A stretch of 64,000 nt of DNA, taken from contig JABDHI010000006.1 in the NCBI GenBank assembly GCA_013285655.1, positions 933 through 64,932 of the forward strand, read 5' to 3'. Shown here piece by piece: positions 42,880-44,111 of this stretch. Made by a program: the position numbers and the translations under genes. Every line of letters begins with the position of its first letter. The stretch's first letter is position 1. Source of the DNA: Bacteroidota bacterium (GTDB taxonomy: Bacteria; Bacteroidota; Bacteroidia; JABEUT01). The notes beneath the pieces were generated by a model, which ran no database searches, was not told the DNA's origin, and worked only from the letters and a program-made list of their open reading frames with translations.

Positions 42880-43323
42880 ATGATAAATAAAATTAAAAGA
42901 ACCGGATGGCTGTTTGCAATATGTATACTAGTGTTTAGCAGCTGCAGTAATAACTCATATAACAAAATGACTAACGAGAAATTGATTAAAGACTATTACG
43001 CCGCTTACGAGCAAAAAGACTGGAACATGTTAACGGGCCTATTGGCAGATGGCTTTGTATTTAATAGCCCTAACGACGACCATATTGATTTAGCAACCTA
43101 TAAGCAACGCTGCTGGCCAAACTCTGCCAGCATTAAAAAGTTCGATATTGATAAAATGGTAATTGATGGCGATGATGCCTTTGTAACGTATAATGGCCAT
43201 ACCAACGATGGCAGAATATTCCGCAATACGGAGTATTTTAGGTTTGTTGACGGTAAAATAAAAGAGAATGCCTGTTACTTTGGCCCGGGTATTAGTTACC
43301 CCGATAATAAGGCGGCCAAATAA
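42880..43323 (+). CDS. SnoaL-like / NTF2-fold lipoprotein
   Basis: Lipobox VFSSCSNN; KLIKDYYAAYEQKDWNMLTGLLADGFVFNSP is a typical SnoaL-like start. Confidence 0.7.
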   Translation: MINKIKRTGWLFAICILVFSSCSNNSYNKMTNEKLIKDYYAAYEQKDWNMLTGLLADGFVFNSPNDDHIDLATYKQRCWPNSASIKKFDIDKMVIDGDDAFVTYNGHTNDGRIFRNTEYFRFVDGKIKENACYFGPGISYPDNKAAK

Positions 43324-43331
43324 GTTAAAAG
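43191..43331 (+). repeat. 141-bp direct repeat, copy 1 (native 3' end of the SnoaL-like gene)
   Basis: 135 of 141 positions are identical to 43971-44111. Confidence 0.95.
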
Positions 43332-43392
43332 CGTAAAGCTAAAGGTGAAAATAGAAGATTCTTAAGCGGAAATTTCGTATATTTGTGTTACT

Positions 43393-43620
43393 ATGAATTG
43401 GAAGAAACATATAACAACTGACCCTAGAATATGCCATGGCAGAGCTTGTATTAAAGGCACAAGGGTAATGGTATCTGTTATTTTAGATAATATGGCTGAA
43501 GGCTTAAGCGCCGATGAAATTATAAAGAGCTATCCTTCGCTTCATAAAAACGATATTAAGGCTGCAATAGCCTATGCTGCCGAATTATTACATGAGCGTA
43601 TAGTATCGCTTGCCGTGTAA
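43393..43620 (+). CDS. DUF433-family antitoxin-like protein
   Basis: [41 protein letters not shown] is the DUF433 signature. Confidence 0.8.
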
Positions 43621-43622
43621 AT

Positions 43623-43973
43623 ATGCGTTTTAAAACCGACGAAAACTTACCATCTGATTTAGCCGAACTGCTTAAGCAGGAAGGTCATAATGCTTTTACT
43701 GTAAACCAGCAAAAAATGCAGGGCTACAAAGATGATGACCTGATAAAGGTTTGTAAGCATGAAAAGAGAGCATTAATAACCCTTGATACTGACTTTTCTG
43801 ATATTCGCAGATACCCGCCAAAAGAGTATCATGGAATAATAGTATTGCGTTCTGCCAATCAATCAAAGGCTGTAATTATGGCACTTATGCATAGAGTACT
43901 ACCACAATTAAAGCTAGAAAAGCTTACTGGTGCATTATGGATTGTGGAAGAAAACAAAATACGGATTAGATAA
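43623..43973 (+). CDS. DUF5615-family PIN-like putative toxin
   Basis: MRFKTDENLPSDLAELLKQEGHNAFTV...DDDLIKVCKHEKRALITLDTDFSDI, paired with DUF433 across a 2-nt gap. Confidence 0.7.
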   Translation: MRFKTDENLPSDLAELLKQEGHNAFTVNQQKMQGYKDDDLIKVCKHEKRALITLDTDFSDIRRYPPKEYHGIIVLRSANQSKAVIMALMHRVLPQLKLEKLTGALWIVEENKIRIR

Positions 43974-44111
43974 TGGCCATACCAACGGTGGCAGAATATT
44001 CCGCAATACGGAGTATTTTAGGTTTGTTGACGGTAAAATAAAAGAGAACGCCTGTTACTTTGGCCCGGGTATTAGTTACCCTGATAATAAAGTGGCGAAA
44101 TAAGTTAAAAG
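43971..44111 (+). pseudogene. 141-bp direct repeat, copy 2: orphan duplicate of the SnoaL-like gene 3' end
   Basis: Encodes only NGHTNGGRIFRNTEYFRFVDGKIKENACYFGPGISYPDNKVAK*. Its first three bases supply the toxin stop codon. Confidence 0.9.

What the first reader, a model, noticed from the sequence alone, without database searches (positions are those of the whole stretch)
43191..44111. DUF433/DUF5615 (PIN-like) TA cassette sitting between 141-bp direct repeats of a host gene's 3' end
Positions 43191-43331 and 43971-44111 are direct repeats with 135 of 141 positions identical. Copy 1 is the genuine 3' end of the SnoaL-like gene (42880-43323) plus 8 nt. Copy 2 is an orphan fragment encoding only its last 43 codons. 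The two repeats bracket exactly the two-gene TA cassette, and the toxin's TAA stop is the first three bases of copy 2. This is the footprint expected from Campbell-type single-crossover integration of a small circular element carrying about 140 bp of homology. It also fits duplication-mediated capture of an addiction module. No recombinase is nearby.
Basis: seen in the sequence. Interest (0 to 1): 0.6.

Follow-up and report, generated by a model that had tools for sequence, protein, structure and literature searches.

The report
Toxin-antitoxin insert with long target duplication
A small two-gene toxin-antitoxin module was inserted into the end of a host gene and copied 142 bases of it to both sides, a recombinase-free insertion scar so far described in the literature for restriction-modification genes and here found to be common around toxin-antitoxin cassettes.

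Summary
Window 43190-43331 and 43970-44111 are 142-nt direct repeats (136/142 identical). They bracket an intact DUF433/DUF5615 (PIN-like, VapBC-type) toxin-antitoxin pair. Copy 1 completes the SnoaL-like gene. Copy 2 is an orphan carrying both non-synonymous changes. The contig has no tyrosine or serine recombinase, and the repeat occurs only twice in the MAG.

The structure matches "insertion with long target duplication" (Nobusato 2000; Furuta 2010), described for restriction-modification genes. It is not a one-off. At one fixed threshold, 22 of 104 TA cassettes (DUF5615 and ParE families, many phyla) have flanking direct repeats, against 2 of 179 non-TA controls. About half are multi-copy repeats (attC- or REP-like arrays). 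The rest are two-copy duplications of local host sequence, mostly gene ends. For one related cassette (L207), a congeneric genome shows the empty site with a single target copy.

Earlier agents of this scan noted the same scar around other TA families on other DNA. The case is a new variant of a known kind, of moderate interest.

The parts
42880..43323 (+). Host SnoaL_2-like gene (147 aa, probable lipoprotein), intact; its last ~44 codons are repeat copy 1
   Evidence: ORF; PF12680 45 bits; aligns end to end with 62-79% identical orthologues in four congeners
43190..43331 (+). Direct repeat copy 1 (functional 3' end of SnoaL, stop, 8 nt)
   Evidence: keeps the outgroup state at both non-synonymous sites
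43332..43392 (+). 61-nt cassette leader with a Bacteroidota-type -7 box TATATTTG (43378-43385); left end of the inserted DNA
   Evidence: The motif (C/A)GTAT(A/C)TTTGT is conserved upstream of the antitoxin ATG in related cassettes in four other contexts. That it acts as a promoter is inferred
43393..43620 (+). DUF433 (COG2442) antitoxin gene, 75 aa
   Evidence: PF04255 E=2.4e-24; 89% identical to the G012 copy
43623..43973 (+). DUF5615 PIN-like toxin gene, 116 aa, intact
   Evidence: PF18480 E=2e-26; keeps all 36 invariant positions including D6 E7 D55 D57 D60 E99; the nine closest homologues are also 116 aa
43970..44111 (+). Direct repeat copy 2: orphan SnoaL 3' end, with D110G at an invariant Asp and A145V, both derived
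44114..44141 (+). REP-like 28-nt dispersed element just after copy 2 (host sequence, not part of the insert)
   Evidence: 8 copies in the MAG, 0 for the reversed control pattern

Best explanation
A compact DUF433/DUF5615 (PIN-COG2442, VapBC-type) toxin-antitoxin cassette, about 640 bp running from its own -7 promoter box to the toxin stop codon, was inserted into the 3' end of a SnoaL-like gene without any element-encoded recombinase. The insertion duplicated 142 bp of the target ('insertion with long target duplication'). The upstream copy keeps the host gene whole. The downstream copy is a decaying orphan.

The duplication could revert by recombination between the repeats, excising a non-replicating 780-bp circle. 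Cells that lose the antitoxin gene in this way would be poisoned by the remaining toxin, so the scar persists (inferred).

Shown: the anatomy, the foreignness and mobility of the cassette, the polarity of decay, the recurrence of the scar around TA cassettes, and one empty site for a related cassette. Inferred: the enzymology. It could be a single crossover of a re-circularised fragment that carries target homology, or a staggered break with fill-in or template switching. The stabilising role of addiction is also inferred.
For: 1. Anatomy of the locus.
2. The cassette is foreign and mobile. The toxin is absent from 17 congeners at E<=1e-10. Homologues of 71-89% identity sit in four unrelated contexts. 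A decayed copy (internal toxin deletion) lies in G012.
3. The repeat is host coding sequence and occurs only twice in the MAG.
4. Both non-synonymous differences are derived in copy 2, one at an Asp invariant in 12/12 outgroups. The 4 synonymous: 2 non-synonymous split is what is expected if copy 1 is constrained and copy 2 is neutral.
5. No recombinase on the contig.
6. Recurrence. Flanking repeats of >=44 bits (shuffled-pair null maximum 30.2) occur in 12/49 DUF5615 cassettes from many phyla versus 2/155 position-shifted controls. They occur in 5/29 in an independent sample from the window's phylum, in 5/26 ParE cassettes and in 0/24 SnoaL_2 genes. Pooled: 22/104 versus 2/179, Fisher p=8e-9.
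7. Two-copy cases duplicate host gene ends just as here: L131 cytochrome c 3' end 53 nt, L179 29 nt, L190 33 nt, L202 promoter plus ATG 34-45 nt.
8. Empty site. The G067 flanks, 94-95% identical to L207, overlap by 28 nt; the target is single in G067 and double (about 36 nt) in G062. C482 of G455 gives a similar signature for L131.
9. The category exists in the literature for R-M modules, and a laboratory route that gives such duplications is documented.
Against: No cassette-free allele and no close relative of this particular locus was found, so for the window itself insertion is inferred from anatomy and analogy. The SnoaL gene sits in non-syntenic contexts in relatives, so 'host gene' may itself be accessory DNA. 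The genome is a 69%-complete MAG and reads could not be examined. The 44-bit threshold was chosen after seeing the first sample (it was fixed for the three later samples), the first sample includes the window itself, and related genomes are not independent. About half of the repeat-flanked cassettes are multi-copy arrays (attC- or REP-like), which is a different phenomenon. Genome-wide copy number was checked only for the window and L131. The stabilising role of the toxin is untested.
Confidence: 0.72

Rival explanations
1. Specifically Campbell-type. A roughly 780-bp circle (SnoaL 3' end + leader + TA), formed by end-joining of a fragment from a strain in which the TA pair already lay downstream of SnoaL, integrated by one RecA-dependent crossover within the 142 bp.
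For: It predicts exactly this footprint. In E. coli conjugation 56/60 recombinants carried a duplication of part of the gene end (14 sequenced: 109-950 bp), made in this way. 142 bp exceeds the minimal length for RecA recombination (established knowledge). The copies are not identical, which would fit a diverged donor.
Against: It needs a prior illegitimate event that first placed the TA pair next to SnoaL. No SnoaL-TA donor arrangement was found in 79 metagenomic SnoaL loci or in the genus. Related cassettes have duplications of only 25-36 nt at unrelated targets, including an intergenic one, which is short for RecA. The substitution pattern is equally explained by divergence after insertion.
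Confidence: 0.3
2. Remnant of a larger site-specific integrative element that targeted the SnoaL 3' end and carried a replacement gene end in its attP. Internal deletions removed the integrase and everything else except the addictive TA pair (a CIME-like relic).
For: Integrative elements typically duplicate the 3' end of their target gene, and TA modules are what would survive decay.
Against: No tyrosine or serine recombinase on the 64-kb contig. The insert is only about 640 bp with essentially no non-TA DNA. Related cassettes in other contexts have equally tight boundaries and different local duplications, which independent decay of larger elements would not produce repeatedly.
Confidence: 0.07
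3. No foreign insertion. The TA pair lay downstream of SnoaL ancestrally, and a local segmental duplication or template switch copied the gene end to the far side.
For: No empty site is known for this locus. Tandem full-length SnoaL paralogues are common in metagenomic loci, so a second SnoaL copy downstream could have been truncated.
Against: Copy 2 starts 1 nt before the toxin stop with a sharp edge, and no trace of the first 103 SnoaL codons remains. The cassette is absent from congeners and mobile elsewhere. This model needs two rearrangements instead of one.
Confidence: 0.08
4. Integron-type or array cassette, or a chance insertion between pre-existing dispersed repeats.
For: TA cassettes are classic residents of chromosomal integrons. 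Several DUF5615 loci in other phyla are such arrays: L154, L153, L168, L133.
Against: Here the repeat is protein-coding SnoaL sequence conserved in orthologues. It occurs only twice in the MAG. It has no attC-like ends or strong hairpin. There is no integrase.
Confidence: 0.02
5. MAG assembly artefact that joins two strains.
For: The genome is a 121-contig, 69%-complete MAG. In G008 the same gene end lies at two contig ends.
Against: Both junctions are unique sequence. The copies differ at six sites with at most 60 identical bases in a row, so a k-mer graph is not expected to fabricate the TA/copy-2 joint. The same architecture is seen in complete genomes (G062).
Confidence: 0.04

Closest known systems
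[quoted passage not shown] 2000, Gene 259:99; Furuta, Abe & Kobayashi 2010, PMC2853133)
   Same: An addiction module is inserted with no transposase or integrase. It is flanked by direct repeats of more than 30 bp of unique local target (46, 47, on the order of 100 bp). The copies are often slightly diverged (44/46). It is found in many phyla, and the host gene can stay intact.
   Different: The cargo is a type II TA pair whose toxin is a PIN-like (presumed RNA) nuclease, not a DNA-cutting restriction enzyme. The authors' suggestion that double-strand breakage by the cargo drives insertion therefore does not transfer. That paper and the 2013 review do not report it for TA modules. No empty site is available for this locus.
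Single-crossover integration of degraded, re-circularised fragments during E. coli conjugation (PMC3240628)
   Same: It produces an insert flanked by a duplication of part of the homologous gene end (14 sequenced clones: 109-950 bp), which is the footprint seen here.
   Different: It is a laboratory system with engineered homology. Here the origin of the homology and the existence of a circle are unknown.
Homology-facilitated illegitimate recombination, and orphan 3' fragments in T6SS, Rhs and CDI arrays (PMC5361080)
   Same: One homologous anchor plus one illegitimate joint; displaced gene-end fragments are left downstream.
   Different: Classical HFIR gives an insertion coupled with a deletion, not a duplication. 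Here the displaced fragment is a duplicate, and the host gene is not a polymorphic toxin.
TA cassettes in sedentary chromosomal integrons (e.g. PMC13108822)
   Same: Compact, self-promoted TA units flanked by direct repeats. Several DUF5615 cassettes in other phyla are of this kind.
   Different: No attC, no IntI, no array. The repeat is host coding sequence present only twice.
PIN-COG2442 (DUF433) VapBC-type TA family, e.g. VapBC10 of Synechocystis (PMC2701414, PMC3834315)
   Same: The same two domains in the same order, with the antitoxin first and a 2-nt gap.
   Different: The toxin belongs to the DUF5615/PIN_10 branch. Activity was not tested.

Membership tests
Insertion with long target duplication (criteria of Furuta et al. 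2010) | The inserted segment contains a complete addiction module | tested here: met
[quoted passage not shown] 2010) | Insert shorter than 20 kb, without mobility genes | tested here: met
   780-bp repeat spacing; no PF00589 or PF00239 match on contig C6. DDE transposases were not searched by profile, but the insert has room for none
Insertion with long target duplication (criteria of Furuta et al. 2010) | Direct repeats longer than 30 bp that are unique target sequence, not a dispersed repeat | tested here: met
   142 nt, two copies only in the 69%-complete MAG; it is SnoaL coding sequence
Insertion with long target duplication (criteria of Furuta et al. 2010) | A related genome shows the empty site with a single copy of the target | tested here: inconclusive
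   No close relative or syntenic locus was found for the window. The criterion is met for related cassette L207 (G062 versus G067) and, at 83-89% identity, for L131
PIN-COG2442 / DUF433-DUF5615 type II toxin-antitoxin | Both Pfam domains above the curated cut-offs, antitoxin upstream, genes adjacent and co-directional | tested here: met
   85.4 bits (cut-off 23.6) and 92.4 bits (cut-off 23.8); 2-nt gap
PIN-COG2442 / DUF433-DUF5615 type II toxin-antitoxin | Conserved acidic PIN-like residues present | tested here: met
   D6, E7, D55, D57, D60 and E99 are invariant in 15 homologues and present here
PIN-COG2442 / DUF433-DUF5615 type II toxin-antitoxin | The toxin arrests growth and the antitoxin neutralises it | not testable with these tools
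   Needs expression in a laboratory strain
Integron gene cassette | attC site with R''/R' core sites and a hairpin; IntI nearby; array of cassettes | tested here: not met
   The repeat is coding sequence without attC ends; no integrase on the contig; only two copies
Site-specific integrative element (attL/attR) | Element-encoded or adjacent tyrosine or serine recombinase | tested here: not met

The most novel reading that the evidence does not exclude
Insertion with long target duplication is a general, recombinase-free route by which small addiction cassettes (type II TA as well as R-M) colonise chromosomes across bacteria and archaea. Roughly one cassette in ten still carries a two-copy host duplication. 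What unites the cargoes is post-segregational killing, which blocks reversal by repeat recombination, and not DNA cleavage by the cargo. The window would be one of the longest and cleanest TA examples.
Probability: 0.4. Interest if true: 0.75.

Novelty: new variant of a known kind. Interest (0 to 1): 0.5.

Why it matters
How solitary chromosomal toxin-antitoxin modules move between unrelated sites without transposases has never been settled. This locus, the survey around it and one verified empty site tie TA cassettes to an insertion footprint previously documented for restriction-modification genes. That shifts the likely common cause from DNA cutting by the cargo to addiction, because cells that delete the insert die. 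It also gives a directly testable prediction: a toxin-dead cassette between 142-bp repeats should be lost much faster than a wild-type one. Practically, such scars mark recent gene gain, create orphan gene fragments that annotation pipelines may miscall, and can break MAG assemblies at gene ends.

Tried and rejected
1. I first thought the right junction had clipped the toxin, because 52 of 53 distant homologues run 1-17 residues past 'IRIR'. I rejected this: the nine closest homologues (66-89% identical, in other contexts) are all exactly 116 aa.

2. The search for an empty site or donor allele of this locus found nothing usable. I tried DNA and protein searches of the 17 congeners, exact-protein look-ups and 79 metagenomic SnoaL loci. 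Flanks are not syntenic.

4. The 28-nt inverted pair 41356-41383 / 44114-44141 looked like element ends but is a dispersed REP-like motif with 8 copies.

5. Other short-range repeats in the MAG (C60, C28, C3, C121, C26) are tRNA pairs, paralogues or intergenic repeats, not the same architecture.

6. The excess of synonymous differences (4/6) might have pointed to a diverged donor. It is equally expected from constrained copy 1 plus neutral copy 2, so it is not diagnostic.

7. L133 was first counted as a two-copy case and then reclassified as an array.

8. The empty-site search for L210 was inconclusive.

9. Promoter and terminator scans and folding of the junction regions gave nothing above the shuffles.

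Full report
**Observation.** The repeat is real. The repeat finder reports 43190-43331 and 43970-44111 as a 142-nt direct pair at 96% identity. A base-by-base comparison at offset 780 shows 136/142 identical with sharp edges on both sides.

- Copy 1 is the 3' end of a 147-aa SnoaL_2 gene (42880-43323; PF12680) plus 8 nt.
- Copy 2 is an orphan.
- Between them lie a 61-nt leader, a DUF433 gene (43393-43620) and a DUF5615 PIN-like gene (43623-43973). The toxin's TAA sits inside copy 2.

The window is contig C6 of a MAG (2.69 Mb, 121 contigs, 69% complete). The repeat occurs nowhere else in it. A self-comparison of the whole MAG finds no other pair above 94% identity that brackets a small cassette. 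No tyrosine or serine recombinase lies on C6. A false join is nevertheless unlikely, because both junctions are unique sequence and the copies share at most 60 identical bases in a row.

**Which copy is which.** Twelve orthologous SnoaL sequences served as outgroups. Both non-synonymous differences are derived in copy 2: D110G at an Asp invariant in 12/12 outgroups, and A145V. The other four differences are synonymous third positions. This is what is expected if copy 1 stayed under purifying selection while copy 2 drifted after the duplication. It does not require a diverged donor, and it does not exclude one.

**The cargo.** The pair belongs to the PIN-COG2442 (DUF433) VapBC-type family predicted by Makarova et al. 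2009, to which the vapBC10 locus studied in Synechocystis belongs. The toxin keeps all 36 positions that are invariant in 15 homologues, including six acidic residues. The nine closest homologues are, like it, exactly 116 aa. So my early idea that the junction truncated the toxin was wrong.

The cassette is foreign and mobile:
- The toxin is not found in 17 congeners at E<=1e-10.
- Homologues of 71-89% identity lie beside an isochorismatase gene, inside an R-M locus, between an ion-channel gene and a TPR gene, and in front of a MiaB-like gene.
- Only a short promoter-like block (C/A)GTAT(A/C)TTTGT is conserved upstream, and similarity ends at the toxin stop.
- In congener G012 the toxin has an internal deletion that leaves the antitoxin, which is ordinary TA decay.

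**Search for an empty site of this locus.** None was found. SnoaL orthologues in four congeners are 62-79% identical and sit in non-syntenic contexts. Seventy-nine metagenomic SnoaL loci (at most about 85% identical) show neither an orphan end nor the cassette. Exact-protein look-ups returned nothing.

**The scar recurs.** While comparing contexts, I saw that the cassette in L202 is also bracketed by a 34-45-nt repeat. There the repeat is the promoter and start codon of the downstream gene, and the orphan copy has ATG changed to GTG. I then screened cassettes systematically, comparing 400 nt upstream of the antitoxin with 400 nt downstream of the toxin on the same strand.

| Sample | Loci with flanking repeat >=44 bits |
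|---|---|
| Null: left flank of one locus versus right flank of another | 0 of 300 (maximum 30.2 bits) |
| DUF433-DUF5615 cassettes, many phyla (includes the window) | 12 of 49 |
| Position-shifted pseudo-cassettes in the same loci | 2 of 155 |
| Independent DUF5615 sample, window's phylum | 5 of 29 |
| ParE cassettes, same genomes | 5 of 26 |
| SnoaL_2 genes, same phylum | 0 of 24 (maximum 24 bits) |

Pooled, this is 22/104 for TA cassettes against 2/179 for controls (Fisher p=8e-9).

Caveats:
- The threshold was chosen on the first sample and then held fixed.
- The first sample includes the window.
- Related genomes are not independent.
- Genome-wide copy number was checked only for the window and L131.

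**Two kinds of flanking repeat.**

- *Multi-copy.* Roughly half are multi-copy, structured repeats. Examples are L154 (168 nt, at least 5 copies, CATAAC...GTTATG ends), L153, L168, L133 and L209. These are integron-like or REP-like arrays, a known habitat of TA cassettes.
- *Two-copy.* The rest are duplications of local host sequence at 88-100% identity:
  - L131: the last ~17 codons of a convergent cytochrome c gene.
  - L179: the C-terminus of a multihaem cytochrome gene.
  - L190: a gene 3' end in an archaeon.
  - L202: a gene start.
  - L207: 25/25 nt identical core.
  - L210, and two ParE cases.

In these two-copy cases the insert is very compact. The right copy starts -4 to +4 nt from the toxin stop in the window, L202, L131 and L207.

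**Empty sites for related cassettes.**
- *L207.* The flanks of L207 (genome G062) align at 94-95% identity to adjacent stretches of congener G067, and the two alignments overlap by 28 nt. At base level the target occurs once in G067. It occurs twice in G062 (about 36 nt, 3 mismatches clustered next to the cassette), on either side of little more than the two ORFs.
- *L131.* A second contig of the same genome carries the acyltransferase / cytochrome c junction with a single copy of the ~60-nt target and no cassette, at 83-89% identity.

- a complete addiction module in the insert;
- an insert under 20 kb;
- no mobility genes;
- a unique target duplication above 30 bp.

Their cases in H. influenzae and Thermus have repeats of 46-47 bp, for example 44/46 identical, and the 2013 review gives the order of 100 bp. 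The one criterion I could not meet for this locus is the empty site. Neither that paper nor the 2013 review extends the phenomenon to classical TA modules, and searches of the held library for the combination found nothing.

**How it likely works.** The enzymology is unknown.
In E. coli conjugation 56/60 recombinants arose by a single crossover of a degraded, re-circularised fragment and carried a duplication of part of the gene end (14 sequenced clones: 109-950 bp). True homology-facilitated illegitimate recombination gave an insertion plus a deletion. This route presupposes that the cassette was already joined to target homology, and duplications of 25-36 nt at unrelated sites are short for RecA.
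- *Alternatives.* A staggered break with fill-in, or template switching, would create the duplication de novo.
- *Cargo and persistence.* The R-M authors suspected double-strand breakage by the cargo. A PIN-like toxin makes that unlikely here. What R-M, ParE and PIN-type modules share is post-segregational killing. I therefore infer that such duplications form around many kinds of DNA but persist mainly where loss of the insert kills the cell. This is an inference, with a clear test (see next steps).

**Rivals considered.**
- *Relic of an integrase-bearing element:* no recombinase, an insert with no spare DNA, and the same tight boundaries elsewhere.
- *Local duplication without foreign DNA:* needs two events, and the cassette is demonstrably mobile.
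- *Integron or REP array:* the repeat is coding sequence present twice.
- *Assembly artefact:* unique junctions, and the same architecture in complete genomes.

**Earlier notes of this scan.** After I had reached this reading, a word search of the scan's notes showed that other agents reported the same scar on other DNA. The examples are AbiEii/MenT, MNT/HepT and HicBA cassettes and an unannotated three-gene cassette, with 34-153 bp duplications. One agent estimated 'about one in five'. Several named the same closest known. These are unchecked AI notes, not independent evidence, but they agree with the rates I measured.

**Verdict.** The locus is a clean, long example of a TA cassette inserted with long target duplication. 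This is a new variant of a kind known for R-M systems, of moderate interest on its own and of more interest as part of a recurrent pattern.

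Noticed in passing
L006 (G008:C126 end) and L010 (G008:C146 end): In congener G008 the SnoaL gene runs off the end of contig C126. A second, 89% identical copy of its last ~106 nt begins contig C146, only about 6 nt from where the window's repeat begins. Either two strains were co-assembled, or the same gene end carries another long target duplication with an unassembled insert. G008 has no DUF433 gene.
   Followed up: partly
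L004 (G012:C193), locus 1080-1800: Decayed copy of the cassette next to an HNH endonuclease and C5-methyltransferase genes. The antitoxin is intact (89% aa). The toxin is reduced to its first ~23 codons joined to its last few codons. An intact version in the same R-M context exists on a JGI contig.
   Followed up: partly
window 41356-41383 and 44114-44141: A 28-nt REP-like motif (AAAGCCCNTTTAGGNGTTGGGGTAAACT), 8 copies in the MAG. An inverted pair of it encloses the TerS-like gene, the ParE pair, SnoaL and the DUF433/DUF5615 cassette.
   Followed up: partly
   Followed up: no
window 46636-46739 and 48378-48480: A 104-nt direct repeat (83% identical) brackets the GNAT and luciferase-like monooxygenase genes. 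Several ~70-nt dispersed repeats recur along contig C6 (compare earlier notes e1-2878534 and e1-2878522).
   Followed up: no
L133 (Nitrospiraceae MAG), locus 400-3520: An island of TA cassettes (PIN, DUF433/DUF5615, MNT/HEPN) separated by a 56-nt core repeat present four times. It has two separate 138-140-nt repeat pairs, each bracketing one cassette. The arrangement is array-like but without obvious attC ends.
   Followed up: partly
L262 (G204:C17): A ParE cassette flanked by a 112-nt, 95.5% identical direct repeat that starts 5 nt after the toxin stop. A third copy lies in the locus.
   Followed up: no
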